A DNA stretch of 64,000 bases, taken from contig ONEG01000006.1 in assembly GCA_900316845.1 (NCBI GenBank), positions 424-64,423 on the forward strand, given 5' to 3'. Made by a program: the position numbers and the translations under genes. This document shows positions 30,483 through 45,693 of this stretch, one piece after another (position 1 is the stretch's first letter; every line of letters starts with the position of its first letter). The notes beneath the pieces were generated by a model. That model saw nothing but the letters and a program-made list of their open reading frames with translations. It did no database searches and had not been told where the DNA came from. Source of the DNA: an uncultured Bacteroidales bacterium. GTDB lineage: Bacteria > Bacteroidota > Bacteroidia > Bacteroidales > Paludibacteraceae.

Positions 30483-30485
30483 ACT

Positions 30486-31325
30486 TTATTTTCCCCAGCC
30501 GGCATCTTTGAGTTTTTTGACGATCAACTCAGGACTTTCCCATACATCCACATAAGGAATGCCTTCGCAAAGGAATCGTTTGTCTTTTTCCGACAATTCT
30601 TTGGAAAGTAGTCCTATGAGATACAAGCGGCTCCCTTTGTATTGGTGAGATTCATAGCAATTCAGCTCAATTTCCTCAACATACGTAACTGCTGCAGCAT
30701 GCAAAATAATGGACTTGCTCCAGAATTCATCCCGCCGGCTCCCATCATTGTTAAAACGAGGCGCCTCTGTCAATCTAACCAACTTGCCATCAGCCGGCTC
30801 TTCATTGGGTTGAGGAGCACGGAAGAACAGATGATTGTTTTTCGCCTTGTCTGTGCCTTCTATCTTCACATTCTCGTAATAGTTGTTGATATAAAAATCA
30901 TAATTCTTAGCTACTATGGAGTCTCTTTCGTCAATGCGCAGTAATTCTATTTCATCTTCAAATCGAATCTCTTTTCTGCAATACTCATCCCCTAAAGATA
31001 TACCGTATTTGTCAGGATTATAACTATTGGCCCATTTGAAAATGTAATACGTTTTTCTCCACCATCTAAAATCTATTTTCTTCTCTCCGCCTTTGGTAAA
31101 AATCACCCCGTCTGACTCCTTTACTGCAGCCTCGTACTTACTACCGATACTGTAGAGCGGGGAACAAAAAACCTTTGCATTCTTATATTCATTGCGAAAC
31201 TCCTTTTCTATTTCTATTACCGAATAAGGAGAGATGCGCTGATCTATGCCATCCACTTGGCAGATGTCCTTACTACACGCATCATAATTGAGCAGCTTAG
31301 ATGGGATTTTTAGTAGATTTTCCAT
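30486..31325 (-). CDS. hypothetical protein (279 aa)
   Basis: First ORF downstream of cassette promoter copy B. No motif recognised. Confidence 0.55.
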   Translation of the reverse strand: MENLLKIPSKLLNYDACSKDICQVDGIDQRISPYSVIEIEKEFRNEYKNAKVFCSPLYSIGSKYEAAVKESDGVIFTKGGEKKIDFRWWRKTYYIFKWANSYNPDKYGISLGDEYCRKEIRFEDEIELLRIDERDSIVAKNYDFYINNYYENVKIEGTDKAKNNHLFFRAPQPNEEPADGKLVRLTEAPRFNNDGSRRDEFWSKSIILHAAAVTYVEEIELNCYESHQYKGSRLYLIGLLSKELSEKDKRFLCEGIPYVDVWESPELIVKKLKDAGWGK

Positions 31326-31391
31326 ATGCTATTAAATTTTTAAAGTTTCGCCCCCTTCTTTGTTCGGCATTGGGGCACTTTCCGATTTTGC

Positions 31392-31477
31392 GCGGCAAAG
31401 ATAATACTTTATTTTCAAATAAAAAAATAGAAGTTAATCTTTTTTGCAATAAGCCCTAATTAGCCATAAAGGTATTA
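31392..31477. repeat. cassette junction/promoter element, copy B
   Basis: Reads gcggcaaagataatactttattttcaaataaaaaaatagaagttaatcttttttgcaataagccctaattagccataaaggtatta. The -7 box TATCTTTG is the complement of 31396..31403. Confidence 0.9.
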
Positions 31478-31501
31478 ATTTTGCACTTTTAATGAAAAAT
31501 A

Positions 31502-31533
31502 TTTGCACAATTCATTTTATTTTTGTAATTTTG
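31502..31533 (+). promoter_or_regulatory. Bacteroidota-type promoter (TTTG-N20-TAATTTTG) for abiEi/abiEii
   Basis: TTTG lies at 31502..31505 and TAATTTTG at 31526..31533, with the ATG at 31595. Confidence 0.65.
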
Positions 31534-31594
31534 CAGCGGATTTGTTTCTATAGTGTAACAATATCATCACATTACAGAAATAAAACGCGCATTT

Positions 31595-32212
31595 ATGACT
31601 TATCAATCGTTTTATAATCAGTGGCATCATTTGGCTTGTTTTTCTATCACACAAGTGAGGGCAATATATCCGACATTTAACCGCCGGAACTATTCCGAAT
31701 GGCAGAAAGCGGGCTATATCGTTCCTTTGCGTCAAGGATGGTACGCCTTTGCGGATTATGTGAACAAGCCGGATTACGCACGCTATTTAGCGTCAAAGAT
31801 CTATACCCCATCGTATATCAGCCTGCATACCGCCTTGTCCTTTTACGGCATTATCCCGGAAGCAGTGGTAGCCATTACGAGTATCACTACGCGCAAAACA
31901 GCTCAGTTTGAGAACGTCTTTGCGTCTTACAGCTACCAAACAATCAAGCCTTCTCTGTTCTGGGGATATGAGCCCAAGCAACTATCCGACGGAAAGACCT
32001 ATCTATTAGCCACGCCGGAGAAAGCGCTGATTGACCTGCTTTACCTCTATCCGCAGTATTCGACGGAAGAAGAGATGCGTGAGTTGCGTCTGGATGAAGA
32101 TTTCATGCACAACGAGTTAGATAAGGAACGGCTTATCGAATATTCTACTCGCATTGGAAGTCCGATAATCACCAAGCGGGTACAACTCTTGCTCAAAACA
32201 CACGGATTATGA
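31595..32212 (+). CDS. AbiEi-like antitoxin / transcriptional regulator (type IV TA)
   Basis: The N-terminal wHTH-like region and the YISLHTALSFYGIIPE motif are typical of AbiEi_4-type proteins. It has a 4-nt ATGA overlap with the next gene. Confidence 0.8.
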   Translation: MTYQSFYNQWHHLACFSITQVRAIYPTFNRRNYSEWQKAGYIVPLRQGWYAFADYVNKPDYARYLASKIYTPSYISLHTALSFYGIIPEAVVAITSITTRKTAQFENVFASYSYQTIKPSLFWGYEPKQLSDGKTYLLATPEKALIDLLYLYPQYSTEEEMRELRLDEDFMHNELDKERLIEYSTRIGSPIITKRVQLLLKTHGL

Positions 32213-32991
32213 TTGATTTAACATACATACGCGGTTTCTATCCGCCGCAGATTGCCAATAATGCCAACTTTCAGAAGCATTTGCTCAAGGAATACATTGA
32301 GTGTCTGGCAATAGAATGGATTTCACAGTCGGCGTGGTCGGACAAGTTGGCTTTTATCGGCGGCACGAACTTACGGCTGATACAGGGTATTGACCGTTTC
32401 TCCGAAGATTTGGATTTTGATTGCAAGAACCTGAGCCAAGAGGATTTCGTCCAAATGACGGATGGTTTAATGCGCTATCTGACGCTACAGGGTTTAACGG
32501 TCGAGGCACGCGATAAAGAGAATCCGAACTTGACGGCTTTCCGTCGAAATGTCTATTTTCCGGAACTGCTCTTCTCGCTCCAACTAACGGGGCATCGGGA
32601 AGAACGTTTCTTAATGAAGATCGAGGCGCAAGACCAAGGTATCAGTTATCCGCGTGAAATGGCGACAATCAGTCGCTTAGGTTTTTATTTCCCAGTTCCT
32701 GTTCCAACGATTAGCATTCTCTTGTCCATGAAACTATCGGCTCTGTTGACTCGTCAGAAAGGCCGTGATTTTTACGATGTCCTTTTCTTGTGGCAACGCA
32801 CAAAGCCGGATTACGCATTCCTAAAGCAACGCCACGGCATAGAAAACGAGGAGCAGTTACGTACGCAACTCCAGGAAACCGTCGCTCATACGGACCTCAA
32901 AACCAAGCAGCGTGATTTTGAGCATCTGCTCTTTGAGCCCCGCAAAAGCGAGCAGATTCTTCATTTCCTGGAGATAATGGGAATAGCGTAG
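32209..32991 (+). CDS. AbiEii/AbiGii nucleotidyltransferase toxin (DUF1814)
   Basis: Contains the nucleotidyltransferase motif FIGGTNLRLIQGIDRFSEDLDFD. Confidence 0.85.
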   Translation: MIDLTYIRGFYPPQIANNANFQKHLLKEYIECLAIEWISQSAWSDKLAFIGGTNLRLIQGIDRFSEDLDFDCKNLSQEDFVQMTDGLMRYLTLQGLTVEARDKENPNLTAFRRNVYFPELLFSLQLTGHREERFLMKIEAQDQGISYPREMATISRLGFYFPVPVPTISILLSMKLSALLTRQKGRDFYDVLFLWQRTKPDYAFLKQRHGIENEEQLRTQLQETVAHTDLKTKQRDFEHLLFEPRKSEQILHFLEIMGIA

Positions 32992-33024
32992 AATTTTGGA
33001 AACGATTTCAAAGATCACATTTTA

Positions 33025-33062
33025 TTTTTTGCAATTCACCCTAATTAGCCATAAAGGCATTA
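33025..33062. repeat. cassette junction element, partial copy D (direct repeat of 31440..31477)
   Basis: ttttttgcaattcaccctaattagccataaaggcatta matches ttttttgcaataagccctaattagccataaaggtatta at 34 of 38 positions. Confidence 0.9.
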
Positions 33063-33070
33063 GGAGGATA

Positions 33071-33658
33071 CTATTTCAATAGTTTCTCATACTTGCTGAT
33101 TGTGTCGTCAAAATACCACAACTTGCCATTGAGTGCTGGGTCATCGGACTTCTGCAGCATCTCCCGTATCGCGAGTGTAACGTCATATGCGGATTGAAGT
33201 TCTTCCTTAGGAGTTCTGGCATCGCAATAGCAATCCAAGCCGTTCGCGAGAATCCATAACAAGTCTATATCATCATCGGGAAAGCGAATAGAAGCCAATC
33301 GTTTTAACAACTCCGGAGTGATTATTCCCGAATCTTCTTTTTCTTCTCCATTTGAGAAAGAAAGGAATCTCTCTCTGTAGGAATAGTACGGGCTTATAGA
33401 CTTCCTGGACATGGCTAAATCTGTTCCGAAATAATCCTGAATTTCCTTCATTTGCCGGACTAACTGCAAGCGGGTTGCTTCGTCAATAGAGGTGTATGGT
33501 AGTACTTGCAGGAAATCATTAATCATTTCTATGGCCTCGAGTTCATTCTTATAGGTGATAATCATATCCGCGTCAAAACCTTCCACCATATACCATAGCA
33601 ACTTGCGCTGATACAAGTTGTCTATGAACTCTTTTATTTTCTGCTCAAACTCTGTCAT
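33071..33658 (-). CDS. hypothetical protein (195 aa)
   Basis: Last ORF of the co-directional cluster. Its N-terminal ~70 aa are paralogous to the 27921..28160 product. Confidence 0.55.
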   Translation of the reverse strand: MTEFEQKIKEFIDNLYQRKLLWYMVEGFDADMIITYKNELEAIEMINDFLQVLPYTSIDEATRLQLVRQMKEIQDYFGTDLAMSRKSISPYYSYRERFLSFSNGEEKEDSGIITPELLKRLASIRFPDDDIDLLWILANGLDCYCDARTPKEELQSAYDVTLAIREMLQKSDDPALNGKLWYFDDTISKYEKLLK

Positions 33659-33709
33659 GGATTTTTGAGGATGAATGCGGCATTTTCGCCGATTATTTGC
33701 TGTTTTATG

Positions 33710-35590
33710 TTATTTTGATACTCTGTATAATTCCTTCAAAATAACCACCATTGACCAGGTGTCGAGTGCGCAGTATTGGAGCAAGTCTTTGCGTGTTTGT
33801 GCTTCTTTTTCGGGAGACATGTCCTTCATCTTCGGGAAGATCTCCATCGCCTCACCGCCGTTATGCACACAGCCCGGCAATTTGTGATAATTGAGTGTCG
33901 GGTCATCGGGGAATAACGCCGGCAGCACTTTTTTGATGCTGAACGAACCATCCATCGCAGGGCGATAGTAAGCGCCATCGCGGAAGGGATCCAACAGATC
34001 TACGATGTTCTCACGAATCGCCAGTAGATGGTTGCTCAAATCAGGGAAAGCCTTTGCCATCTCTTTGAGACGCGATTTCTCAAAATTATCATTAAATACC
34101 ATAACGGTGACATCCATCGGGATATCTTTGCAGAGCTGCTCTGCTACTTCACGCATCGGATTCGCGCTATGCGCATCGGCGAGGAACTCGAAGTGCTCAC
34201 ATGTGTCGAATTCAGAATGCTGAATATGGAGCGAATACTGCGTAGGAATCTGCTGATAAGGATGCGTACCTTGATATTCAGGAATAGTAGGCTGGATGGT
34301 CTCGAAATCCAAGTGATAGATCGGATATTTTAGCCCCGCCAAGAACGCACGTATCTTCGCTTTGTCGATGATATCAACATTATGCAACGTGCTTTCTATT
34401 TGGATTCGCTGAATCTCATTTTGCTTGTTCTCTTTATTACAAAATTCCTTGTCTGCAAGTATATCCTCAAAAGAAGCTACACCTCTTTTGAAACACTTCA
34501 GCGCCGTTCTCCATTGCATTCCATACAAGTCAAATACACTCGGCGTAGGAACGTGATGCTGCTCCATGCAATAAGCCTTGAACGGGCAGGGATATGGTTT
34601 GTTGCAACCATTATTGAGGTCAGCAGATTCATACGCGAGTATAAGTTCCCTTTTTGCCAATTCAACAGAATCTGCCATCTTGGGAGATTCTGCATCTACC
34701 AATTTGGCCATATCATAGATATTGAACAGTTGCTTTATGTCCAAATCGCCGTCCAGGATATAGTGCTTATCCAACTGCATTAGGTATGTGCCGGTTACAT
34801 CAATGCCACATTTCTTCAACACGTATTTCTGGAAAGAGACATCCCAGATGTAAACCTCATCGGGCTTCTTTTCTTTTTTCTTTTTGGTTTCGTTCTCATC
34901 ATCAAGGTCAGACTCATAATCCTTTGCGGTAGAACTCTTTACCTCATAAATCGCCCATCCGCCTTTCTCGCGATGCAGCAGATCCACGGCACAATAACAG
35001 CCGTTTGCCTCAAACGCCGCTTCGCAGATGGTCTCAACCGAAGGATCAGCCATCAAGCGTTGCGTCTCTTCGAGCATAGCTGCGATATCCAAACTGCCAT
35101 CCGCCCTGCGCTTGGTTGCTTCGTGGTAGGTACCGAAATAGGTTTTCGCGAGATTACCTACTTCTATTCCGGCTTTGATGCGTGATTCCGGAATAGCTTC
35201 CTCAACAGCCTCTTCCGGCTTATTGATTTTCATCCACAAGCATTTCGGGCATTGCCGAAAGGCGGTGTAACGGGATTTGGTTAAGAGGATGGGCTCCGGT
35301 CTCGGCTTTTCAATTGGGTGGTCAAGATCTATCCAAAGTACATCAGCTTCTTGAAGAATAAAGCCGTTCCAAAATTCATACTTGAAATCGTATTCCTGCG
35401 TGAGTGTTTCCTGAAGCCATTGGTTCCAACCTTCTTCGTTGTCGGCATCCTCGGGATATTCTTCCAAGAACTCCTTACGCGCAGCATCTACCGCTTTGCG
35501 GTATTCTGCATATTCTTTCTCATCCAGTTCTATCTCCCATGTATCATACACTTCGGGATAGAATACTTTTGCTTTATAATATGTAGCCAT
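33710..35590 (-). CDS. DUF2779-like protein: Cas4/RecB-type PD-(D/E)xK nuclease with Cys cluster fused to a DEDD-type exonuclease-like domain
   Basis: Contains CPKCLW, then D...IYEVKSS (D/ExK), CNKPYPCPFKAYC, YHLDFETI (Exo I-like DxE), NDNFEKSRL and YCALDTW. Assignments are by motif only. Confidence 0.65.
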   Translation of the reverse strand: MATYYKAKVFYPEVYDTWEIELDEKEYAEYRKAVDAARKEFLEEYPEDADNEEGWNQWLQETLTQEYDFKYEFWNGFILQEADVLWIDLDHPIEKPRPEPILLTKSRYTAFRQCPKCLWMKINKPEEAVEEAIPESRIKAGIEVGNLAKTYFGTYHEATKRRADGSLDIAAMLEETQRLMADPSVETICEAAFEANGCYCAVDLLHREKGGWAIYEVKSSTAKDYESDLDDENETKKKKEKKPDEVYIWDVSFQKYVLKKCGIDVTGTYLMQLDKHYILDGDLDIKQLFNIYDMAKLVDAESPKMADSVELAKRELILAYESADLNNGCNKPYPCPFKAYCMEQHHVPTPSVFDLYGMQWRTALKCFKRGVASFEDILADKEFCNKENKQNEIQRIQIESTLHNVDIIDKAKIRAFLAGLKYPIYHLDFETIQPTIPEYQGTHPYQQIPTQYSLHIQHSEFDTCEHFEFLADAHSANPMREVAEQLCKDIPMDVTVMVFNDNFEKSRLKEMAKAFPDLSNHLLAIRENIVDLLDPFRDGAYYRPAMDGSFSIKKVLPALFPDDPTLNYHKLPGCVHNGGEAMEIFPKMKDMSPEKEAQTRKDLLQYCALDTWSMVVILKELYRVSK

Positions 35591-35681
35591 AGTTAGAAAT
35601 TATTTATTGCCCAAAGGTGGGGTAATGGAATTTGGGTAAGAGATAGGGCGTAGCATTAAAAGTATTAACTATTTAAAGTTG

Positions 35682-37973
35682 TTATTTCATTATATGCAAG
35701 GATTGCAATTTCTCTATTATCGCCTCATCAGCCAACACTTGTTGAGAGCAGTTTTTATCTGAGTATAAATATTTTCCCCCATTAGTAAGACCTATACAAA
35801 TATTATTAGTAGAAATTGATAGAGTATTAGAGTTGCCATTCTCTGGATACCAATCTAATATAATTGCTTTGTCTTGATCTATTTGCGACCACAAATATGC
35901 CAAGAATATTTCCCGATGTTGAGTATCTGATTGTAGTTTCTGACGAAGGAACATATGTTCTGTATTCGTATCATACCAAAGTTTCGAGTTGGATGCAAAC
36001 TCAAGTATTGATGGATTTCGAACTATATGTTTTCTCCAATCTTGAGGTTCAAATCGTTTTCTTAATTCTTCAAAAAGTTCATCAAATGTAACACAATCTG
36101 CAAATTCTGCATACCACAAATCTATGAGTTTCTTAATAACTTCTCCATAACTTGATTCCTGTGAGCGAAGGAAATTTTTGAAACTGCGGTCGCGATTGAA
36201 ATAATTTTCGCACAAATATAAATCTTCGGCACTCTTTTTCCAGTTTCCATAATTTTCCACACATAGCAAAGCCGCCCTTAATTTATATTCGTCAGAGATA
36301 GGAAATATTTTTTGAAGTTTCTCTGCATATGACTTAAATAATGCGAAAACAGGTTTTCCACTCGGTTGCATTGACCATTGAAGTGGAGCTATAATCTGCC
36401 CCCATAGATATGTATTATTTTCCAAATTTTCAATTTCTTCAAGCCAATTAGAGTCTGCCAATTGAACACTGGATTTAATTCGTTCTTCTTCTAACGACAC
36501 ATTGGCCAATCCCGAAATATTATCTAAATTGGATAAGAATTCACGCATGGAACTATTTTGAGTTCTATACTTTTTCCAGATATTTTCTATAGCCTCAATA
36601 GCTTTTCTTTCCTTTTCTGATTTATCAATTTGTTGCTGCGTGTTTCTTAACAAAACTGTATTACGGATAAAACGCATCCAATCATTAAATTCTTTAATAA
36701 GTTCATCCTTATTTAAAAGTTCTGTAGCAGAATACGTGCGCAAAAACAATATCATTGCAAAAAAGGCAACTTGTAAATCTTTTTCTGGATCTTTAAGATA
36801 TTCATCCCATAAAGACTTCTCCGGTAGCCATAGTATATTTAAAAAATCAGAAGCATTATGTATTTGCCCACCGTCAATGTAAAACAAGTTGTTGATATCT
36901 GTGATTAAACTTTCAAAATCAAGTTTCTCTGGAAAATTCACTTTGCGCTCAATAGTTCTTCGTTTCCATGCCAAATCACAATACATGGGTAAAACATTTT
37001 CAAAATCTAACTGCTTACCAATCATCCATAGTTCATAATCAACATCAACTCGGTTATAGAATTGAACACATATTATCCGTTGAATGAGTCGTTTTAACTG
37101 CATTTCAACTTTTCCCTCTACATCGTCATATGCTATATTTGGAATATCATTGATGTTTTTGTCTTTGCAATAATTCTGCCAAAAATAATTTATCCAAAGA
37201 CCATCTATTTGCGTTCTCCATTGCTTTTCTGTCTCACTTCCAGATAGACCTTGTATTTGCATTTCCTCTTCTAGCACCGATTTCATGATGTCAAAAGATG
37301 ATAATTGCTTTCCACGTGCATTCATCTTGACATATAATTCATCTCCCATATCAAACTCATCTAGATTAAGTAGATGAAATGATATGTTCTTCAAATTCTC
37401 ATAATGAGGGTCTTGATACTTGTTTTGGATTATTAAATTGTCAATTTCTTCAATAACCACCAACATTGATAATATACTTGGATCATACCGCCACTGCCAT
37501 TTAAACCACCCCTCCTTCATAAGGAAGAGTGATAAGGGCAACTCCTCTTTCTGTTTACAATAAGCACTCTTTTTTTTACATATTTCACTGGCGGAATGAC
37601 AAACTAACTCGTTGCAAAAATCAATAGTTGATTGTCTTGTTGCATATGAAAGAACTGCTTTTCCGTTCAATATCAAATCATTTTTAAAATTTTCAGGACA
37701 AAAAAACCAGTGCAATAAGAATAACGTGGTTAATCGTTGTTGACCATCAAGAGGTTCAAATGCGCCGTCTCTGTCATAACCATACACAAAATCCAAATGC
37801 AATCTATCTCCAGAAGGCGAATAAATCACTTTTAGTAAATCATTTAAAAATAATCTGCGAATCTCATTAACGCGAGTGGTTCTTCTGCCTTCGGCATAAT
37901 CTCGTTGGATTCCTGGGACTCTAATCATTTTATTCTTACACAAAGTAAGAAAGTTTTTTTCAAAAGTAACCAT
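35682..37973 (-). CDS. DUF262 (ParB/GmrS-like NTPase) protein with a long C-terminal region and no recognisable His-Me finger
   Basis: Contains IRVPGIQRDYAEG, LDGQQRLTTLFLL and MNARGKQLSSFDIMK. Its ATG overlaps the upstream stop (TAATG). Confidence 0.8.
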   Translation of the reverse strand: MVTFEKNFLTLCKNKMIRVPGIQRDYAEGRRTTRVNEIRRLFLNDLLKVIYSPSGDRLHLDFVYGYDRDGAFEPLDGQQRLTTLFLLHWFFCPENFKNDLILNGKAVLSYATRQSTIDFCNELVCHSASEICKKKSAYCKQKEELPLSLFLMKEGWFKWQWRYDPSILSMLVVIEEIDNLIIQNKYQDPHYENLKNISFHLLNLDEFDMGDELYVKMNARGKQLSSFDIMKSVLEEEMQIQGLSGSETEKQWRTQIDGLWINYFWQNYCKDKNINDIPNIAYDDVEGKVEMQLKRLIQRIICVQFYNRVDVDYELWMIGKQLDFENVLPMYCDLAWKRRTIERKVNFPEKLDFESLITDINNLFYIDGGQIHNASDFLNILWLPEKSLWDEYLKDPEKDLQVAFFAMILFLRTYSATELLNKDELIKEFNDWMRFIRNTVLLRNTQQQIDKSEKERKAIEAIENIWKKYRTQNSSMREFLSNLDNISGLANVSLEEERIKSSVQLADSNWLEEIENLENNTYLWGQIIAPLQWSMQPSGKPVFALFKSYAEKLQKIFPISDEYKLRAALLCVENYGNWKKSAEDLYLCENYFNRDRSFKNFLRSQESSYGEVIKKLIDLWYAEFADCVTFDELFEELRKRFEPQDWRKHIVRNPSILEFASNSKLWYDTNTEHMFLRQKLQSDTQHREIFLAYLWSQIDQDKAIILDWYPENGNSNTLSISTNNICIGLTNGGKYLYSDKNCSQQVLADEAIIEKLQSLHIMK

Positions 37974-39775
37974 TATAGATAGAATTTAAGGGTTTCAAAT
38001 AATTGTTCCTTATATGCTTGCCTATCAGTTTCATTCCACCGTATTATATCTAATTGGGAAGAACCCCTTTTAGCGCCCGTGTAGTATTTTAAAAACAAAT
38101 TACGAGTACATAGTGGAATAAATACACCGTTTTTATCATTTTGAATAATTATTGAGCGTTTACATGAGAAAGGTGCATTTTTATAACTACGATTAATACC
38201 ACAATTTAATAATGCCAAATTATCTATTGTATCTTTTTCTTCTCCAATAATATTGCTGTTATAGTATTTATATACTGCATCATAGAAATCCTTGAATACG
38301 TTATTTGAATCCTGATTCTCGGTTTTAAATTTATCGAGCAATTCTTTTCCTTGTTTCATTAACTGCTTAGCTTGTTCCATTGGATCGTATTGCAATTGCT
38401 CTATTACCAAATTTATCCATTCAATTTTATGTTTCAACTCTTGCATATTATTATCTTTCTGGGAGTCGACATGCTCCACATCCCATTCCTTCTTCTTAAA
38501 CTGTTCAAATGGAAATTTAAGATTGGATTTATTATACGACTCTATATTAAACAATAAAAGCATTTCTCTTATTTTGCTTAAATCAGTAGAATATTCCCAT
38601 TCCTCAAAAGGACGTTTCGTTTCTATACAATATTTAGAGCAATTTATTTTGCTTTTTATTAATTCTTGTAAAGATTTTATTAATAGATCTTCATCCATTT
38701 GAACTGCAGTTTTGTATACGCCTGCCTTAATATGTTGGGGCAACATTCCTTTCCATACTAAATATCCTACGTAATTATAGATACGGTTATCTTCATACCA
38801 ACGAAGAAACATATCATAAACTTTTTTTACTTCTTCCCATATATGCTCAAAACTATTAGAGGCGTTATCATATTTCTTTTGAAAAAATCTATATGCCTCC
38901 AGAGGGTCAGTCTTTTGATAATCAACATCAGCCACATAATCAAATAACACATCCATCCGAGTTCCTACATTTTCTCTTCTGTCACTAATAAAATACCAAA
39001 AATCATCTTTCTCAAATTGCTTCTCCATTATGTCCCATTCCATACTGAATCTATCCACATTTAATTGATTGTTATTAGGAGTTGTGGATTTAAATTTAAT
39101 ATAGAAAAGTGCTTTTATAAGTTCAGAACTAGTTAATGAAATCTTACCCTTGTTAAGTCGGTTGAAAACTTTGATTGCACTCAGATCTGAAACTATGGCA
39201 TCTTTATTTTCCTCTGAAACCACATACCATATAAACTTTACTTTTTTCTCATTGTCTCTATAAAATAATGCCTCTGCCATATTCCGTAAGGCGCGTTTAT
39301 AATCTTTTTTCTCTTCGCACCATTGAATAATCTTTTGTTGTGCTTTCATTAGATAGAAACTATCTATATTATCAAAGGGGCACAATGAATCAAAGTTAGG
39401 CGTAACACGTTCTATATAATTGACGGTATATAACTGGAAGTCCTCTGCCTCTTCTTTATTAAAACGTTTGATAAATTGTTTTAAAATCAACAACATTGTG
39501 GTAAGACGTTGTTGTCCGTCTAATACTTCCCATTCATTTTTATTTTGCCCTCTACGCACAACTAATGGCTGAAGGAAATATGATTCTTCTTTGTTATCTT
39601 GAGATACAAAATTATAAATATCATCTAACATATCAATAACATGTTTTTCTTCCCATCTATATCCTCTTTGAAAAGAGGGTATTTGGAAGACATAAGGTGC
39701 CTGTTGACCTTGCAATAGAAATGCTACTGGCAGTGTATCAAAGTCCTGTAGCGTGTCTTTTAATAAATCATTCAT
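37973..39775 (-). CDS. GmrSD-family DUF262 + DUF1524 (HNH/His-Me finger) protein
   Basis: Contains IPSFQRGYRWE, LDGQQRLTTMLLIL and FNRLNKGKISLTSSELIK. The C-terminal nuclease motifs are WDVEHVDSQ and IDNLALLNCGINRSYKN. Confidence 0.85.
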   Translation of the reverse strand: MNDLLKDTLQDFDTLPVAFLLQGQQAPYVFQIPSFQRGYRWEEKHVIDMLDDIYNFVSQDNKEESYFLQPLVVRRGQNKNEWEVLDGQQRLTTMLLILKQFIKRFNKEEAEDFQLYTVNYIERVTPNFDSLCPFDNIDSFYLMKAQQKIIQWCEEKKDYKRALRNMAEALFYRDNEKKVKFIWYVVSEENKDAIVSDLSAIKVFNRLNKGKISLTSSELIKALFYIKFKSTTPNNNQLNVDRFSMEWDIMEKQFEKDDFWYFISDRRENVGTRMDVLFDYVADVDYQKTDPLEAYRFFQKKYDNASNSFEHIWEEVKKVYDMFLRWYEDNRIYNYVGYLVWKGMLPQHIKAGVYKTAVQMDEDLLIKSLQELIKSKINCSKYCIETKRPFEEWEYSTDLSKIREMLLLFNIESYNKSNLKFPFEQFKKKEWDVEHVDSQKDNNMQELKHKIEWINLVIEQLQYDPMEQAKQLMKQGKELLDKFKTENQDSNNVFKDFYDAVYKYYNSNIIGEEKDTIDNLALLNCGINRSYKNAPFSCKRSIIIQNDKNGVFIPLCTRNLFLKYYTGAKRGSSQLDIIRWNETDRQAYKEQLFETLKFYL

Positions 39776-39886
39776 ATAAATATTTTTTTAAGTTCTAATA
39801 TAATTTAGAACCTCAGTTAATAACATTCCGATTCGCAACTGCTCATACATATTTCTTTCTCGTCAAAAGAGACACGAATGAGGGCT

Positions 39887-41251
39887 CTAATGTGTTCTGT
39901 TTCCATTCTTATCTATGGTATATTCCTCACCATCTTTCTGAACCCTATATGTTCCATCACTATTTTTTTTAATCTCCTTATATATAAGCGGTACTTGTTC
40001 TTTCCCTTGTTTATTTACAAGACCACATTGACCTGACTGAGAACCGCTTTCTACTAAAAACAATCCATTCTCATCACAAAAACAAACGTGTCCATACTTA
40101 AAGGGAACTATTACATGCAGCTGTTTATCAACTACCCCCCATTTGTCGTTTCTACGTATAAGATATAAACCATCAAGACCTTGTCTAAGACATGGAGTAT
40201 TATCTTTCCTCAAAATGGGGATACCATTACTTCCTTGTTTATAAGTCTTGTTCTTTGGCGACACAATCACATTTATTGTTTCGGATATATAAGCGAGATC
40301 GTAAACTCTATAACAACCATCAGAGAGTTCATCACATCTAAATCTATCTGCGAAGTATATATTTTGGGGATTAGCTCCATATCGGCGACAGATTTCCATC
40401 TGATCTATTCCCGTCCAATCACCATCCAAACCTAAGGTATCTGTTTGTTTGTCATAGAAGTAAGACAAATTATGCCACTGAGGAAAAATATTCTTTCCTC
40501 CCAATACTATCGGGTTTGAGGCCAAACTTTGTGGTAAAGATATAGGATTGTTTTTCCACGATGGAATGACATAATCTGCCAGTTGAATCTTATACGATTG
40601 CAAGTAGTCACGCAATGTTGCATCTCCTTGCAAATATTGATCCATCAACTTGGCGCCATATTTATAGCACGTCTGTTTAATACTCACATCGTTATATGCC
40701 CAATCATAGTAACTACTTTTAGTTTCTTTCAAATAGAGAAGCATTCCGAACTCTGCTAATGGTTCTTCTACAAATAGAACGTATGGATACTTTTCGTGCC
40801 CGGAACGATTGAAATAGGCATGCATCGTCTCATGAGCAAACGTAGAGACAAGTAATTCGTCCATATGTTTACCACCATACTCTTGCCGCATTTCTTCAGG
40901 GAAAAGTTTTATTTGATTTTTCTTCGGATCATACAAGCCACGAAGCCGCATTGTCCGCCATGCTTCTATATTTTGACTTATTATATCAAGATTTCGTTCG
41001 GCCTGATTTCGTTCTTCCATGTAAACATCAGCTTGCTTTTTTTTCGCATTCCAATAGTCCTGCGCTTCTTCTAACTCACGTGGTATAGATCTTGTGATAA
41101 TACCCGGCTCAATTATGACATCTACCTTTAACTTTGTTAAAATATTATCTATCGATCCAATCGTGTCAAGATAAAAAGGAACTGCGGCACATTGCTTAAG
41201 CAAATCTAACTGTTGCTGTGATAATAATGAGTGGTCATCAATAATTGTCAT
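39887..41251 (-). CDS. HExxH metallopeptidase-like (ImmA/IrrE-like spacing) protein with C-terminal WG repeats
   Basis: Contains FAHETMHAYF followed ~17 aa later by EEPLAEFG. The C-terminal repeats are NDKWGVVDKQLHVIVPFKY and GLVNKQGKEQVPLIYKEI. Confidence 0.6.
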   Translation of the reverse strand: MTIIDDHSLLSQQQLDLLKQCAAVPFYLDTIGSIDNILTKLKVDVIIEPGIITRSIPRELEEAQDYWNAKKKQADVYMEERNQAERNLDIISQNIEAWRTMRLRGLYDPKKNQIKLFPEEMRQEYGGKHMDELLVSTFAHETMHAYFNRSGHEKYPYVLFVEEPLAEFGMLLYLKETKSSYYDWAYNDVSIKQTCYKYGAKLMDQYLQGDATLRDYLQSYKIQLADYVIPSWKNNPISLPQSLASNPIVLGGKNIFPQWHNLSYFYDKQTDTLGLDGDWTGIDQMEICRRYGANPQNIYFADRFRCDELSDGCYRVYDLAYISETINVIVSPKNKTYKQGSNGIPILRKDNTPCLRQGLDGLYLIRRNDKWGVVDKQLHVIVPFKYGHVCFCDENGLFLVESGSQSGQCGLVNKQGKEQVPLIYKEIKKNSDGTYRVQKDGEEYTIDKNGNRTH

Positions 41252-41352
41252 AAATGTTTTAGATTTTTAAAGTTGCACTTACTCTTTTCCGGATTGCCTT
41301 GTCTCACTCACGTTCGAACGAATGCGGCATCATCCAATATATTGTGAGTTTA

Positions 41353-41823
41353 TTATTTTTTGACCATTTGCCATTCTCCTTCTTCATCCGAAAATAGCGG
41401 ATAGTATTGTTCCGCCTCTTCAAGAGGCATGGCTTTGTCTAAATTTTTGACGATAGATTTATATAGATCTAAAAAATTAAGATCGCAATATAGGTACGCA
41501 TCTTTTCCCTTACTATCTTTGTAACAAAGAGGTTGGAATTTATCATCTGGACTTGGTTCATTCCACTCCGCATAAGATTTTAGTTGTATGGTTCCATCAA
41601 AAGCGCCTACAGCCCATATCACGTGGTCTTCCGTATAGAGTACATCTTCACTCTCCGGAGCAAATAAGATGCAGTTTCCTTTTGGATTCTTACTCAAGAT
41701 TTCGTAACACTCGGCTAATGCTTGCAAGCCGATTGCATTAATTTGAGATTTAATCTCCTTTATCTGCGCATAAAGGGGTGTTACCATTTCTTCGAATTTG
41801 TTCGGATTCAGTTTTGTTTCCAT
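41353..41823 (-). CDS. hypothetical protein (156 aa)
   Basis: ORF co-directional with its neighbours. No motif recognised. Confidence 0.5.
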   Translation of the reverse strand: METKLNPNKFEEMVTPLYAQIKEIKSQINAIGLQALAECYEILSKNPKGNCILFAPESEDVLYTEDHVIWAVGAFDGTIQLKSYAEWNEPSPDDKFQPLCYKDSKGKDAYLYCDLNFLDLYKSIVKNLDKAMPLEEAEQYYPLFSDEEGEWQMVKK

Positions 41824-41910
41824 ACTATTATAGTTTTAAAGTTTTACCTAATCTTATATTGATTTTCTCATCTCGCAATGCAAGAACGATTACACGGCTT
41901 TCTCCAATTA

Positions 41911-42249
41911 TTATTCGATTATTAAAAGGAAGTGATACCCCTGTATTTCGATACAATAATTGTATTCTACATCCTCATATTCCATTTCGTCTTCTACTTC
42001 AAATGCCTCTTGAACTATCCATTTTCCTGATTGTAACGGATAGTAGGCACCGCCATAAACGATAGCCAATTCTCCCTGTTCGTTTTCATGGAGTTCGCCA
42101 TCGACCACCACGTTTTCATACGTGTTAGAAATTTGTTTATGCAATTCAGGATTGTCTGCGCGTAAAGCCATTATGGCGTCCTGCTCAATTGCACCTCCTA
42201 TGCAAATAACAAATTTTGAGGATTTTTTCCAAGATGATTTACCATTCAT
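41911..42249 (-). CDS. hypothetical acidic protein (112 aa)
   Basis: First ORF downstream of cassette promoter copy C. Confidence 0.5.
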   Translation of the reverse strand: MNGKSSWKKSSKFVICIGGAIEQDAIMALRADNPELHKQISNTYENVVVDGELHENEQGELAIVYGGAYYPLQSGKWIVQEAFEVEDEMEYEDVEYNYCIEIQGYHFLLIIE

Positions 42250-42280
42250 AAATTTTCTCGTTTAAAATTTTAGTATTCAC

Positions 42281-42360
42281 GCTGCAAAGATAATACTTTA
42301 TTTTCAAATTAAAAAATAGAAGTTATTCTTTTTTTCATTTTGCCATAATTAGCCATAAAG
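42281..42360. repeat. cassette junction/promoter element, copy C
   Basis: Reads gctgcaaagataatactttattttcaaattaaaaaatagaagttattctttttttcattttgccataattagccataaag. By hand alignment it is about 87% identical to copy B. The -7 TATCTTTG is the complement of 42285..42292. Confidence 0.9.
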
Positions 42361-42421
42361 TTTTACTTACTTGCTTACGAGCGACATACGACTCACATAC
42401 GAGACGATAGCGACAAACTAT

Positions 42422-44155
42422 TTATACCAGACACAGTGCTTGTTTTAATAATTGCTTGCGTGCATCAACAAAAGTTCCGAAATCTGCAATATCAATAGAT
42501 AACTTCTTGAAGAAATGATCTTGGGGATATTTGATTTGATCTGCCGGAGTTGCATTGTTTAGCCAATCTTTCAAAGGTTTCTTATTCTTGGAGCGATTGG
42601 TATCATTATCCAATAATTCGAGATTTGCAACGGTGTCATACGTAATTCCGTCGTTCGCAACATTTGCATCGTTAGGAGTATTAAAACTAATTGTACTTAA
42701 TGTTGCAGGAGTAAATGTTGCTTTGGGATGCATATGATCCACATCGTATGCCTGTCCTGCCACCGGAGTCATACACAACCCGCTTGATGCGCCCAAGGCA
42801 TAAATGATATTCAAAACAGGGAACGCGTTCTGTTTCCTGGTTGCTAAAAAATTATCAACATCTGCGTTTGTAATGATTAGTTTAGTATACGTACTTTCAA
42901 TTTCATTATAAGGGAAGTGGTTGTTTGAGGAAGAAGTATTTATGATATCTCTTATATTCTTCAAAATCTCATCCGTCCCTGCTTCATATAAGTTTTTGAG
43001 AATGGCACGATACAGATATTTTCTCATGTCTATATATACGCCACTCATCGCGTTTGTTGATTGGATGGCTGTATGTGAAAGTTTATGCTTGTATATATAA
43101 TAGACCAGAGGAATAACTGCTAATTTTGTAGTCAAGCCTTTTTCTAACAGATGAAAATCAGCCACCAAGTCAAATGCTTTTTCCACACTATCCATTATCA
43201 GTTGGCTATTCATATATATGGATTGCGGGATATTGGGTGTAGTGGCAGTTGCCATAAAATCGGATGGTTGTACACTAAGGGTATTGCCAAATAACATCAA
43301 GAACATCTTGAATACCCAATCTTTATCCACCTCATAGTTCTTTTTTTCCACTAAATCGATTATATCTCCCACATAATCCCGTGCACTAATCGTATAACCA
43401 TTATTTGCCCAACTAACTGTAAGGGCAGACATTAACAGATCACCTTTCTTAAGGACATATCCGCCACTATTAGTACGAACAAAGATTTCCAACACATCAT
43501 CTATATTATTGCTGTTTATCTCGTAATAATTGATCACTGCATTGTTATTTACCAATGCCCACAACAGTTGAATGGAGGTTTGCGCATATTCATTATCTTG
43601 TAATCCTAACTTATTTAATGTGTTTATCATATTAGACCCAGAAAGAATATCTTTCACTTTGAACCATATTTCACCGTTCTTTTGATTGCTCGCCAGTTTG
43701 GTGGGCGTTAAGAATTGAAAATCATATTTCAATTCAGAATTCGTTCGTGGTTTATCTAAACGAAGATATAATTCCGCAGCTTGCTTTCCAGATGGCGTTT
43801 TGTAGGAACCGTATAAACCGATCCATAAACTAGTTAAACGCTGCTGACCGTCTATCACTATCTCATATGATTCATTTGGTATTGCAGCTTTATGATTGAA
43901 TATAGGATTAGGAGTTCCGCTTATATGGTTTGCCGGTAAGAATTGATAAAAAGCTATCGGTTGATTAGGAAGATTATTCGTGTTCCAAAACATCATGGTA
44001 TTTATTGGATAGTCCTGCATCAAACTATCAAACAATTCGCATATATCTCTTGTTTTCCAAACAAATTCGCGCTGCAGAGCAGGGAGGAGAAGTTTATTAG
44101 AAGGTATCTTGCTTAAAACTCCGGTAATTGAATTGCTTAAAATTCTAGGTGTCAT
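42422..44155 (-). CDS. GmrSD-family DUF262 + DUF1524 protein (third DUF262 paralogue)
   Basis: Contains LPALQREFVWK, IDGQQRLTSLWIGL and VRTNSGGYVLKKGDLL. The C-terminal motifs are YDVDHMHPKA and LELLDNDTNRSKN. Confidence 0.85.
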   Translation of the reverse strand: MTPRILSNSITGVLSKIPSNKLLLPALQREFVWKTRDICELFDSLMQDYPINTMMFWNTNNLPNQPIAFYQFLPANHISGTPNPIFNHKAAIPNESYEIVIDGQQRLTSLWIGLYGSYKTPSGKQAAELYLRLDKPRTNSELKYDFQFLTPTKLASNQKNGEIWFKVKDILSGSNMINTLNKLGLQDNEYAQTSIQLLWALVNNNAVINYYEINSNNIDDVLEIFVRTNSGGYVLKKGDLLMSALTVSWANNGYTISARDYVGDIIDLVEKKNYEVDKDWVFKMFLMLFGNTLSVQPSDFMATATTPNIPQSIYMNSQLIMDSVEKAFDLVADFHLLEKGLTTKLAVIPLVYYIYKHKLSHTAIQSTNAMSGVYIDMRKYLYRAILKNLYEAGTDEILKNIRDIINTSSSNNHFPYNEIESTYTKLIITNADVDNFLATRKQNAFPVLNIIYALGASSGLCMTPVAGQAYDVDHMHPKATFTPATLSTISFNTPNDANVANDGITYDTVANLELLDNDTNRSKNKKPLKDWLNNATPADQIKYPQDHFFKKLSIDIADFGTFVDARKQLLKQALCLV

Positions 44156-44265
44156 AATATTATTATTATTTATAAAAGTTTTGCCTACTCTTTTTCGGAT
44201 TTTCGGCTTCCTCCATTAATTGTATTTTTAGGTTGTTTCTGCATCTATATAGTCAAAATCAGACT

Positions 44266-44335
44266 GGCGAGACACTAACGAGAGAGAATCGAGTCGAGAG
44301 TATTTCGAGGGTTTATCGAGGGTATATCGAGAGCA
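44266..44335. repeat. degenerate CGAG-rich tandem repeats in the long leader of the 42422..44155 gene
   Basis: Reads ggcgagacactaacgagagagaatcgagtcgagagtatttcgagggtttatcgagggtatatcgagagc. Confidence 0.7.
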
Positions 44336-44697
44336 TAACATATCCTACTGCACCCTATATATACATAGTATATATCCCGTGATTTTTAATTTTTCTCCTT
44401 CATTCGTAAATAAAAGATCTCTTTTGTTCCGACCATTCTTTCCAAATCCGCTGCAAAGATACAACAAATTTTGCATATTTGCAAGCGTTCGGAGATTTTT
44501 TGGGGCAGAATAGAATAAAATTCTATCTATTTTATGTGGATATAGGGGGTCATGCTCGCATGAAGCGGTCTATAACCACATAAAAGAGGAAGCCTTCTGG
44601 CTCGGCAAAAAAATCGCCGCCGCACAATATATTCCGCAAAATGCGAACGTATTTTCGGTGGGTGACCCTGCTATATCTCATATAGTCCAAAGGCTTG

Positions 44698-45252
44698 TTA
44701 TTTGCCCCTTACTATATATCCGTGCTTGTCCAGATGATTCGTGCGATCCAAAACCGCGTCAATCATAGCTCCGATAAACGCCTTTTGGCACAACGGAAAC
44801 GAAGTTTCTGGAATGTCATTCTGTGCGGATTGTTCCTGCGCTTTCTTGATTCGTTCGGGGCAAAAAACGATTCGGAATGCTTCCCCGTCATAGTACCCGA
44901 GAGACTCCAACGGGATGTATTCAACCTCGGTTACTTCTGGCATTTCTGATTCCTTTGCAAAACGGACACAGAGTGTAGCAACTACCTCGGAAATATCCAA
45001 CCTCTTGTTCCGCATTTCTTTTTCTTCCGGCATACTGAAATATGCCTTAGTAGGATCAAACGCATCCCAGAAATCAGCAACGATGTCTGCCGGAACCGCT
45101 TGCACGATGCTTGTAAAATCGGGTTCCGGAGTTGGCGAGTCTGCCAGACACGAAATGATAAAATCCTGCTCATCGTCAGTAAGTTGTTCCCTACATATTT
45201 TCAGGAGTAAACGATTGTATTCAATAATATCTGCAAGTGTATTATTTTCCAT
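44698..45252 (-). CDS. hypothetical protein (184 aa)
   Basis: The ATG at 45252 lies just downstream of a -7 box (complement of 45264..45271). The longer start at 45294 would lie upstream of that box. Confidence 0.5.
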   Translation of the reverse strand: MENNTLADIIEYNRLLLKICREQLTDDEQDFIISCLADSPTPEPDFTSIVQAVPADIVADFWDAFDPTKAYFSMPEEKEMRNKRLDISEVVATLCVRFAKESEMPEVTEVEYIPLESLGYYDGEAFRIVFCPERIKKAQEQSAQNDIPETSFPLCQKAFIGAMIDAVLDRTNHLDKHGYIVRGK

Positions 45253-45259
45253 GTTTTTT

Positions 45260-45340
45260 GCGACAAAGATACAATAAAAAATCAAAAGACGCAAAGGTTT
45301 GACCCTTTACGCCCTAATTAGCCCCAATTTAACGAGTGAA
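45260..45340. repeat. cassette junction/promoter element, copy E (family 2)
   Basis: Reads gcgacaaagatacaat...cgcaaaggtttgaccctttacgccctaattagccccaatttaacgagtgaa. The 51-nt core at 45290..45340 matches 47181..47231 at 50 of 51 positions. Confidence 0.9.
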
Positions 45341-45400: not shown

Positions 45401-45405
45401 ATTTG

Positions 45406-45681: not shown

Positions 45682-45693
45682 TCTATCGGCCGT

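What the first reader, a model, noticed from the sequence alone, without database searches (positions are those of the whole stretch)
35682..39775. Translationally coupled pair: a complete GmrSD-like enzyme plus a DUF262-only paralogue
The upstream 600-aa protein has the DUF262 motifs (FQRGYRW, DGQQRLTT, NRLNKGKxLTSSELIK) and a C-terminal DUF1524 His-Me finger (EHVDSQ...NLALLNCGINRSYKN). The downstream 763-aa protein keeps the DUF262 motifs (IQRDYAEG, DGQQRLTT, NARGKQLSSFDIMK). After these it has about 500 aa in which I find no H...N...N nuclease motif. The stop and start codons overlap (TAATG at 37971..37975), and both genes share the most AT-rich composition in the window. GmrS and GmrD activities can be split or fused, and two-protein DUF262-based type IV systems have been described. 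The long nuclease-less C-terminal region may be a specificity or sensor module.
Basis: partly seen in the sequence, partly recalled or inferred. Interest (0 to 1): 0.65.

Follow-up and report, generated by a model that had tools for sequence, protein, structure and literature searches.

The report
GrwAB-type two-protein type IV restriction system
These two overlapping genes are a new member of the recently described GrwAB family, a two-protein anti-phage system in which a DNA-cutting enzyme needs a nuclease-less partner to attack chemically modified phage DNA; the find is real but the family was already published in 2025.

Summary
Two minus-strand ORFs (600 aa at 37973-39775; 763 aa at 35682-37973) overlap in TAATG and lie in the lowest-GC part of the window. 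Protein A has DUF262 plus an intact His-Me nuclease motif (E434-H435, N519, N528). Protein B has an intact DUF262 (DGQQR) followed by about 520 aa with no nuclease signature by motif, Pfam, profile-profile or fold search.

The pair is not a local oddity. In 78 of 78 evaluable loci from many phyla, an A-type gene sits directly upstream of the B-type gene.

It belongs to the GrwAB family (Vibrio cholerae WASA lineage; Nat Microbiol 2025, PMC12137116). A matches GrwA (E 4.5e-39) and B matches GrwB (E 4.4e-38). Family HMMs cover all available GrwA and GrwB sequence (E 1e-129 and 8e-137). Gene order and catalytic-residue spacing also agree. In V. cholerae both genes are required, and the system restricts phages with 7-deazaguanine or glucosyl-hmC DNA.

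What this work adds:
- A natural A::B fusion protein, seen on 13 contigs, supports a physical complex.
- B's C-terminal region occurs almost only behind DUF262.
- A confident model of B's last 204 aa has no PDB or viral match.

Verdict: new member of a known kind; modest interest.

The parts
37973..39775 (-). Gene A, GrwA-like (600 aa): DUF262 NTPase/sensor domain, alpha-helical linker, split DUF1524 His-Me nuclease
   Evidence: ORF. Pfam GmrSD_N 8.8e-32 plus a weak GmrSD_C hit. BLASTP to V. cholerae GrwA residues 1-399: 31.6% over 342 aa, E 4.5e-39. The A-family HMM matches VcGrwA at E 1.2e-129.
39104..39709 (-). A: DUF262 (GmrSD_N) domain, residues 23-224, with QR (36-37), DGQQR (86-90; nt 39506-39520) and FxxxN (204-208)
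   Evidence: Pfam. These residues are 100% conserved in 73 A-family sequences. R90 corresponds to GrwA R81, whose R81A change abolishes defence (PMC12137116).
38177..38476 (-). A: His-Me finger nuclease motif, E434-H435 ... N519 ... N528, with an ~84-aa insertion between H and the first N
   Evidence: E434, H435, N519 and N528 are 100% conserved. H-to-N spacing has a median of 85 in the family. GrwA has H431, N521 and N530 (spacings 90 and 9), all essential. The insertion explains why Pfam GmrSD_C matches only residues 514-593.
37971..37975 (-). TAATG stop/start overlap between A and B
   Evidence: Sequence. In homologous loci, 41 of 78 pairs overlap and 33 of 78 have gaps of 0-30 nt.
35682..37973 (-). 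Gene B, GrwB-like (763 aa): DUF262 domain followed by ~520 aa with no nuclease motif
   Evidence: ORF. Pfam GmrSD_N only. BLASTP to V. cholerae GrwB residues 1-399: 34.7% over 294 aa, E 4.4e-38. The B-family HMM matches VcGrwB 1-398 end to end, E 7.8e-137. AF2 model has mean pLDDT 88.
37272..37937 (-). B: DUF262 domain, residues 13-234, with Q23-R24, DGQQR 76-80 (nt 37734-37748) and YxxxN (214-218)
   Evidence: Pfam. Q23 and R24 are 98% conserved; D76-R80, K216, M217, N218, R220 and G221 are 100% conserved in 79 sequences. R80 corresponds to GrwB R86, whose R86A change abolishes defence.
36369..36686 (-). B: best-conserved part of the B-specific helical region, residues ~430-535 (W432, R434, N438, E496, E497, K500, E518, G525)
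   Evidence: N438, K500 and E518 are 100% conserved; E497 and G525 are 98%. All lie in helices or loops of the AF2 model. Function unknown; a role as the interface with A or with DNA is inference.
35685..35993 (-). B: C-terminal beta-rich domain, residues 661-763, the most variable part of the protein
   Evidence: Mean identity to the family is 0.10 with 29% gaps. The model of residues 560-763 has pLDDT 90.9 and pTM 0.89. No significant PDB match (best E 0.9) or viral match (best E 0.49).

Best explanation
The two genes encode a GrwAB-family, two-component, modification-dependent (type IV) restriction system.

Shown here:
- A carries an intact DUF262 nucleotide-binding domain and an intact His-Me nuclease.
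- B carries an intact DUF262 and a conserved ~520-aa region that is not a nuclease.
- The genes overlap and are co-inherited as an A-then-B unit across phyla.
- Each is homologous to its V. cholerae counterpart.
- A natural A::B fusion exists.

Taken from the published V. cholerae system:
- Neither protein protects alone.
- The DGQQR arginine of both proteins and the H/N/N of GrwA are essential.
- The targets are phages with hypermodified DNA (7-deazaguanine; glucosyl-hydroxymethylcytosine).

Inferred mechanism: A and B are made in fixed ratio from one transcript and form a hetero-complex. This would be analogous to the intertwined homodimers of BrxU and SspE, but with only one nuclease-bearing subunit. 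Both DUF262 domains bind or hydrolyse NTP to sense modified foreign DNA and license A's His-Me site to cut or nick it. B's conserved helical core (residues ~430-535) probably makes the contact with A or DNA. Its variable C-terminal beta domain may tune specificity or escape phage inhibitors.

Which modification this particular system recognises is unknown.
For: - Anatomy and motifs.
- Pair conservation: an A-type gene lies directly upstream of B in 78 of 78 evaluable loci from Bacteroidota, Pseudomonadota, Bacillota, Spirochaetota, Verrucomicrobiota and others, with differing flanks. In 74 of 78 pairs the ORFs overlap or lie within 30 nt.
- Homology to the reference system: A vs VcGrwA E 4.5e-39 and B vs VcGrwB E 4.4e-38, with cross pairs only 1e-5 to 1e-6.
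- Family HMMs against the reference: 1.2e-129 and 7.8e-137, covering all 399 available residues, including ~150 aa of GrwB beyond DUF262.
- Bridge: VcGrwA and VcGrwB are 62% and 56% identical to the pair in L076, which the window-derived query recovered.
- Catalytic-residue numbering: window R90/H435/N519/N528 against GrwA R81/H431/N521/N530.
- The authors' own hit list includes a Bacteroidales pair (Phocaeicola vulgatus BVU_RS20895/20900). It matches my HMMs at 1.5e-113 and 3.4e-107.
- Published genetics and targets: PMC12137116.
- Complex: P0180 (1458 aa) is an in-frame A::B fusion. Residues 5-590 match the A-HMM (2.7e-141) and residues 626-1376 match the B-HMM (3.9e-125). It is found identically on 13 contigs from several sequencing runs.
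Against: - Identity to the V. cholerae proteins is only 32-35%, so substrate specificity cannot be transferred.
- Only the first 399 residues of VcGrwA and VcGrwB were available (supplement cells are cut). GrwA's nuclease domain and GrwB residues 400-821 were compared only indirectly, through family members.
- No experiment exists for this locus or for any Bacteroidota member.
- An A-B complex was not modelled here, because the tools predict single chains only.
- The role of B's C-terminal region is unknown. It has no detectable similarity to anything of known function.
Confidence: 0.85

Rival explanations
1. Two independent single-chain GmrSD-type enzymes that merely sit next to each other, with B carrying a cryptic or highly diverged nuclease domain.
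For: Both proteins have intact DUF262 motifs. Foldseek's best full-length match for B is SspE, although weak (E 6e-3, TM 0.18). B residues 664-697 form a beta-beta-(beta)-alpha element containing H673. The top, non-significant hhalign alignment places that element on A's N...N segment.
Against: - No conserved His or H...N...N motif in 79 B-family sequences.
- 0 of 41 members hit GmrSD_C.
- hhalign of C-terminus against C-terminus gives E 0.5, probability 0.1%.
- The domain-level fold search finds no HNH or His-Me protein.
- A and B co-occur in 78 of 78 loci and a fusion protein exists.
- In GrwAB neither gene works alone.
Confidence: 0.04
2. A member of the TgvAB / ECOR17 GmrS1-GmrSD2 type of two-gene GmrSD system.
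For: The general logic is the same: one DUF262-only protein plus one DUF262+DUF1524 protein, both required (PMC11411939; PMC12373910). In other genomes the pair is embedded in type I RM operons, as TgvAB is.
Against: - Gene order is reversed. In TgvAB and GmrS1-GmrSD2 the DUF262-only gene comes first; here, and in all 78 loci, the nuclease gene comes first.
- The catalytic His sits much later in the TgvB-type nucleases (TgvB H571, GmrSD2 H583) than in A (H435); TgvB N602 lies 31 residues after its His, but whether it matches A's N519 or N528 was not aligned.
- The GrwAB authors state that GrwB and TgvA are distinct apart from DUF262.
- Direct homology to GrwA and GrwB is strong.
Confidence: 0.05
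3. B is a decaying or inactivated GmrSD remnant with no function of its own, and A works alone.
For: B lacks a nuclease. PADLOC (2023) and NCBIfam have no model for it.
Against: - B is a full-length ORF in a family of more than 6,700 clusters.
- Its DUF262 motifs are 98-100% conserved (DGQQR 100%) and several C-terminal residues are invariant.
- Its AF2 model is confident.
- GrwB R86A abolishes defence.
Confidence: 0.02
4. A three-gene variant in which the downstream DUF2779 / Cas4-like exonuclease gene (33710-35590) is a functional part of the system.
For: - A DUF2779 gene lies on the same strand 91 nt downstream of B.
- The closest relative locus, L007, has the same arrangement.
- DUF2779 genes also follow B in L048 (Piscinibacter) and L079 (Campylobacter).
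Against: - Only 4 of ~82 loci show it.
- In L079 the gene is split, and in L048 it lies 527 nt away.
- Most pairs have unrelated neighbours, and V. cholerae GrwAB works as two genes in E. coli.
- Defence genes often cluster without functional coupling.
Confidence: 0.04

Closest known systems
[quoted passage not shown]
   Same: - Same gene order: the nuclease-bearing DUF262+DUF1524 protein of ~600 aa comes first, and the DUF262 protein with an uncharacterised C-terminal region of ~760-820 aa comes second.
- Same motifs with near-identical numbering.
- Reciprocal sequence homology.
- The authors' own survey already lists a Bacteroidales homologue.
   Different: - Only 32-35% identical.
- B is 58 aa shorter than GrwB (763 vs 821 aa), and its C-terminal domain is the most divergent part.
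- Different host phylum and island context: next to a BrxU-like enzyme and a DUF2779 gene, not a Shedu gene.
- Substrate specificity is untested.
TgvAB (V. cholerae VPI-2) and GmrS1/GmrSD2 (E. coli ECOR17)
   Same: Two-protein GmrSD-like type IV systems with one DUF262-only subunit and one DUF262+His-Me subunit. Both proteins and both DGQQR motifs are required.
   Different: The gene order is opposite. The nuclease subunit has its catalytic His near residue 571-583. The accessory subunit's C-terminal region is reported as unrelated to GrwB's.
Single-chain GmrSD family: Eco94GmrSD, BrxU (PDB 7P9K), SspE (PDB 6JIV), HEC-06
   Same: A has the same DUF262-linker-DUF1524 architecture. B's DUF262 is homologous to A's (hhalign probability 97.7%). 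SspE is the best, though weak, structural match to B.
   Different: Those enzymes act alone as homodimers. Here a second, nuclease-less subunit is obligatory by homology with GrwAB. A matches the PADLOC HEC-06, Orf5 and SspE models only over its first ~100-300 residues. A's His-Me finger carries an ~84-aa insertion.

Membership tests
GrwAB | Two adjacent same-strand genes: the DUF262+DUF1524 gene first, the DUF262-only gene second, tightly coupled | tested here: met
   for the window. The same order holds in 78 of 78 evaluable homologous loci. The order in V. cholerae is given.
GrwAB | First protein has the QR, DGQQR and FxxxN motifs and the His-Me H...N...N residues (GrwA R81, H431, N521, N530) | tested here: met
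   A has Q36-R37, D86-R90, F204-N208, H435, N519 and N528, all 100% conserved in the family.
GrwAB | First protein is homologous to V. cholerae GrwA | tested here: met
   BLASTP E 4.5e-39 and family HMM E 1.2e-129 over GrwA residues 4-399. GrwA residues 400-603 were not available, so the nuclease domain was compared only by residue numbering.
GrwAB | Second protein is homologous to V. cholerae GrwB, including the region beyond DUF262 | tested here: met
   BLASTP E 4.4e-38 (B 16-276). The B-family HMM aligns to GrwB 1-398 end to end, E 7.8e-137. GrwB 400-821 was not available. The bridge is L076_B: 56% identical to GrwB and homologous to B over residues 16-534.
GrwAB | Second protein lacks a nuclease domain | tested here: met
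GrwAB | Both proteins are required for defence, and the system restricts phages with hypermodified DNA | not testable with these tools
   Known only for the V. cholerae system. Strict co-occurrence and a natural fusion give indirect support here.
TgvAB / GmrS1-GmrSD2 | The DUF262-only gene precedes the nuclease-bearing gene | tested here: not met
   The order here is nuclease gene first. The TgvAB and ECOR17 order is given.
TgvAB / GmrS1-GmrSD2 | The accessory subunit's C-terminal region is homologous to TgvA | not tested
   No TgvA sequence was at hand. PMC12137116 states that GrwB and TgvA are distinct apart from DUF262.
Single-chain GmrSD (Pfam GmrSD_N + GmrSD_C) | B contains a DUF1524 / His-Me domain | tested here: not met
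   No Pfam hit in 41 members. No conserved His. hhalign E 0.5. No fold match.
HEC-06 (PADLOC) | Full-length match to the HEC-06 models | tested here: not met
   A matches only residues 29-126 of ~560-residue models. B has no PADLOC hit.
SspE (phosphorothioate-sensing) | Association with sspABCD or dnd modification genes | tested here: not met
   No such genes were found among the ORFs scanned between 20 and 49 kb. A matches SspE models only at the N-terminal ~90 aa.

The most novel reading that the evidence does not exclude
B's ~520-aa C-terminal region, and especially the confidently modelled C-terminal domain with no structural neighbour, is a new kind of DNA-modification reader or regulatory module. 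It would set the specificity of the A nuclease. In this Bacteroidota clade the system may also have recruited the adjacent DUF2779 / Cas4-like exonuclease as a third component.
Probability: 0.15. Interest if true: 0.5.

Novelty: new member of a known kind. Interest (0 to 1): 0.25.

Why it matters
Type IV restriction systems decide whether phages with modified DNA can infect a host. That bears on phage therapy and on gene flow in gut Bacteroidota.

This locus shows that the GrwAB design is widespread far beyond Vibrio. It often travels inside defence islands or type I RM operons.

The natural A::B fusion gives independent, sequence-based support for a hetero-complex. The mapped conserved residues in B (N438, E497, K500, E518) give concrete targets for working out what the nuclease-less subunit does, which is still an open question for this family.

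None of this changes the picture published in 2025.

Tried and rejected
- NCBIfam gave no model for A, B or the BrxU-like protein.
- PADLOC 2023 gave no hit for B. The library predates GrwAB.
- Sequence searches of the PDB found nothing. Single sequences A and B, and the B-family profile, gave only E 0.3-0.7 hits at the DGQQR region of SspE.
- Foldseek of the full-length B model gave only SspE at E 6e-3 with TM 0.18. Foldseek of the C-terminal 204-aa model gave nothing significant against PDB or BFVD. The LytTR domain was top in PDB at E 0.9, which is not evidence.
- I considered B residues 664-697 (beta-beta-alpha with H673) as a degenerate His-Me finger. I rejected it as unsupported: the His is not conserved, and hhalign probability is 0.1%.
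- The E496-E497-x-x-K500 motif is not a PD-(D/E)xK site. It lies in a helix and has the wrong spacing.
- The published paper's supplementary Table 6 is truncated in the held copy. The bioRxiv supplement supplied only the first 399 residues of each protein.
- The sigma-70 promoter and terminator scan was no better than shuffles.
- No tRNA was found in the window to mark island ends.
- The organism was not identified. The nearest B homologues are metagenomic, at about 60% identity.


Full report
OBSERVATION. The two ORFs are real and lie where stated: 37973..39775(-) encodes 600 aa (A) and 35682..37973(-) encodes 763 aa (B). The minus strand reads TATCTATAATGGTT. The TAA of A (37975-37973) and the ATG of B (37973-37971) share one base. 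GC is 0.305-0.337 across 36-40 kb, the lowest in the window, against about 0.52 in the flanks. All quoted motifs are present. One small correction applies: the A motif is NRLNKGKISLTSSELIK.

DOMAINS. In Pfam, A matches GmrSD_N (DUF262) at 8.8e-32. It also gives a sub-threshold GmrSD_C (DUF1524) hit that covers only the C-terminal half of the model (residues 514-593). B matches GmrSD_N at 1e-18 and nothing else. A has DGQQR at 86-90, E434-H435, N519 and N528. B has DGQQR at 76-80. The ~84 residues between H435 and N519 are an insertion in the His-Me finger. This insertion is typical of A's relatives (median 85) and explains the weak Pfam score. PADLOC (2023) matches only the N-terminal part of A, to the HEC-06, Orf5 and SspE models, and does not match B. 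NCBIfam matches neither.

THE PAIR IS A CONSERVED UNIT. B has more than 6,700 homologous clusters, all carrying Pfam GmrSD_N only and measuring 750-850 aa. Metagenomic contigs encoding three homologues show a ~600-660-aa GmrSD_N (+faint GmrSD_C) gene immediately upstream, in unrelated flanks. A scan of species-representative genomes returned 80 loci from Bacteroidota, Pseudomonadota, Bacillota, Spirochaetota, Verrucomicrobiota, Campylobacterota, candidate phyla and others. In 78 of them an A-type ORF lies directly upstream on the same strand. In the other two, B starts at the contig end. Among the 78 pairs, 41 overlap and 33 have a gap of 0-30 nt. In 73 A-type sequences, E434, H435, N519, N528 and the DUF262 motifs are 100% conserved. 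In 79 B-type sequences, DGQQR and the KMNxRG motif are 100% conserved, as are N438, K500 and E518. E497 and G525 are 98% conserved, and no histidine is conserved after the DUF262 domain.

IDENTIFICATION AS GrwAB. A literature search found three described two-gene GmrSD-like systems:
- TgvAB of V. cholerae VPI-2 (PMC11411939);
- GmrS1/GmrSD2 of E. coli ECOR17 (PMC12373910);
- GrwAB of WASA-lineage V. cholerae (PMC12137116).

In the first two, the DUF262-only gene comes first. GrwAB has exactly the arrangement seen here. GrwA (603 aa; DUF262, helical linker, DUF1524; R81, H431, N521, N530) comes first. [quoted passage not shown]

In that system both genes are required. Changing R81, H431 or N530 of GrwA, or R86 of GrwB, abolishes defence; N521A abolishes it against Bas24 but not Bas37 in the source data. 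The system restricts Queuovirinae (7-deazaguanine DNA) and Tevenvirinae (glucosyl-hmC DNA), and escape mutants map to the phage dpdA gene.

The bioRxiv supplement holds the first 399 residues of both proteins and of other hits, including a Phocaeicola vulgatus pair. The comparisons are:
- BLASTP: A vs VcGrwA 31.6% over 342 aa, E 4.5e-39. B vs VcGrwB 34.7% over 294 aa, E 4.4e-38. The cross pairs score only 6e-5 and 3.5e-6.
- HMMs built from the window proteins plus the genome-locus homologues: VcGrwA scores 1.2e-129 and VcGrwB scores 7.8e-137. Both alignments run over all available residues, about 150 aa past GrwB's DUF262. Cross hits reach only 1e-10 to 1e-12 and are confined to the DGQQR region.
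- VcGrwA and VcGrwB are 62% and 56% identical to the pair in locus L076 (Psychrobacter), which the window-derived query had recovered.

Membership is therefore established for everything that could be compared. The last 200 residues of GrwA and the last 420 of GrwB were not available.

WHAT IS B'S C-TERMINAL REGION? It is not a nuclease by any test available:
- No member of a 41-sequence sample hits GmrSD_C.
- hhalign finds the two DUF262 domains homologous (probability 97.7%, E 1.8e-12). It finds nothing between B 241-763 and A 231-600 (E 0.5).
- The AF2 model of B is confident (pLDDT 88). It shows DUF262, a long helical region (247-660) and a small beta-rich domain (661-763).
- Foldseek against the PDB gives only SspE, weakly (E 6e-3).
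- A separate model of residues 560-763 (pLDDT 90.9, pTM 0.89) has no significant PDB or viral neighbour.
- A profile search of PDB sequences finds nothing.

Within the family, conservation is highest in DUF262, then in residues 446-575. It is lowest in the C-terminal beta domain (identity 0.10, 29% gaps).

A phmmer search of B 241-763 against 1.84 billion representative proteins gave only 143 hits. Nearly all are 700-900 aa with the match starting near residue 250-300, so this region exists essentially only behind a DUF262 domain.

The one different architecture is P0180 (1458 aa), an in-frame A::B fusion. Residues 5-590 match the A-HMM (2.7e-141). A ~35-45-aa linker follows. Residues 626-1376 match the B-HMM (3.9e-125). 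The fusion is encoded identically on 13 contigs from several sequencing runs, so it is not an assembly error. This supports a physical A-B complex with the same polarity as the gene order.

MECHANISM. The shown, imported and inferred steps are these.
- Shown here: intact catalytic motifs in A, an intact NTP-binding motif in B, overlapping and co-inherited genes, homology to GrwAB, and the fusion.
- Imported from the V. cholerae work: mutual dependence of the two proteins and modified-DNA targets.
- Inferred: A and B form a hetero-complex that resembles the intertwined BrxU and SspE homodimers but has a single nuclease site. NTP binding by both DUF262 domains gates A's His-Me nuclease on modified foreign DNA. 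B's conserved helical core mediates contact with A or DNA. The variable C-terminal domain modulates specificity or inhibitor escape.

The modification recognised by this particular pair is unknown.

CONTEXT. The pair lies in a low-GC defence island that also holds:
- an IetA-like AAA ATPase (26646-27899);
- AbiEi/AbiEii (31595-32991);
- a DUF2779 / Cas4-like gene directly downstream of B (33710-35590);
- a BrxU-like single-chain GmrSD (42422-44155; PADLOC HEC-05 8.7e-134; PDB 7P9K 8e-52);
- a PD-T4-6-like Ser/Thr kinase (47323-48573).

No dnd, ssp or methyltransferase genes were seen nearby. In other genomes the pair is often embedded in type I RM operons, in the order HsdM-HsdS-[A-B]-HsdR-YgjP. 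It also sits next to WYL/WCX regulators, AAA ATPases or AbiE genes, and it occurs on plasmids.

VERDICT. However, the system belongs to a family that was described and tested in 2025, and whose authors already listed Bacteroidales homologues. It is a new member of a known kind. The residual interest lies in the unknown function of the GrwB-type C-terminal region, the natural fusion, and the recurrent DUF2779 neighbour.

Noticed in passing
window 42422..44155 (-): A third GmrSD-family gene (577 aa). It is a single-chain BrxU-like type IV enzyme: PADLOC HEC-05 at 8.7e-134 full length, PDB 7P9K (BrxU) at 8e-52, DGQQR at 102-106, and DVDH at 471-474 (the counterpart of BrxU's DHIYP) with H474. Pfam sees only GmrSD_N. 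The island therefore carries two different type IV systems 2.6 kb apart.
   Followed up: partly
window 33710..35590 (-): A DUF2779 protein (626 aa) with a Cas4-like N-terminus plus an RNase H-like exonuclease domain lies 91 nt downstream of B on the same strand. A DUF2779 gene also follows the B gene in L007 (closest relative), L048 (Piscinibacter) and L079 (Campylobacter, where it is split). The family is uncharacterised (PMC13621843).
   Followed up: partly
L089 4001..8377 (protein P0180): A natural in-frame fusion of a GrwA-like and a GrwB-like protein (1458 aa), next to a type II RM (two C5 methylases plus a BpuJI-like REase). It is seen on 13 contigs from several runs.
   Followed up: yes
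window 31595..32991 (+): An AbiEi antitoxin (205 aa, PADLOC 1.5e-73) and AbiEii nucleotidyltransferase toxin (260 aa, 8.1e-100) pair with a 4-nt overlap. AbiEii pairs also neighbour GrwAB-like pairs in L027, L051 and L062.
   Followed up: partly
window 26646..27899 (+): An AAA ATPase (417 aa) that matches PADLOC IetA (2.1e-29). I did not look for an IetS-like protease partner.
   Followed up: no
window 47323..48573 (-): A Ser/Thr protein kinase (416 aa) that matches PADLOC mad6 and PD-T4-6 models (3e-26 and 4.8e-24). It lies at the edge of the low-GC island.
   Followed up: no
window 39887..41251 (-): The gene directly upstream of A encodes a 454-aa protein with an HExxH motif (FAHETMHAY) and C-terminal WG-containing beta repeats (Pfam WG_beta_rep 1.3e-09). 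It has no defence-library hit, and two small ORFs (156 and 112 aa) of unknown function lie upstream of it.
   Followed up: no
window 39792..39811 (-): A perfect 7-bp inverted repeat, GTTCTAA-ATTATA-TTAGAAC, lies 17-36 nt upstream of A's start codon. It could be an operator or the end of the upstream transcript.
   Followed up: no
L036, L045, L052, L059, L062, L076, L085: The GrwAB-like pair is embedded inside type I RM operons (HsdM, HsdS, A, B, HsdR, then a YgjP-like metallopeptidase). This mirrors the embedding reported for TgvAB.
   Followed up: partly
protein P0156 (915 aa): A GrwB-family member (B-HMM 4.7e-155 over residues 10-814) with an extra C-terminal stretch. That stretch gives a weak PD-(D/E)xK hit (PDDEXK_7, 0.0015, residues 778-842), so some family members may have gained a nuclease at the C-terminus.
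   Followed up: no
window ~24000..47000: A low-GC region (0.30-0.46, against ~0.52 in the flanks) holds the defence genes. No tRNA gene is present anywhere in the window, and no integrase was seen among the ORFs scanned. The island's borders and mobility are undefined.
   Followed up: no
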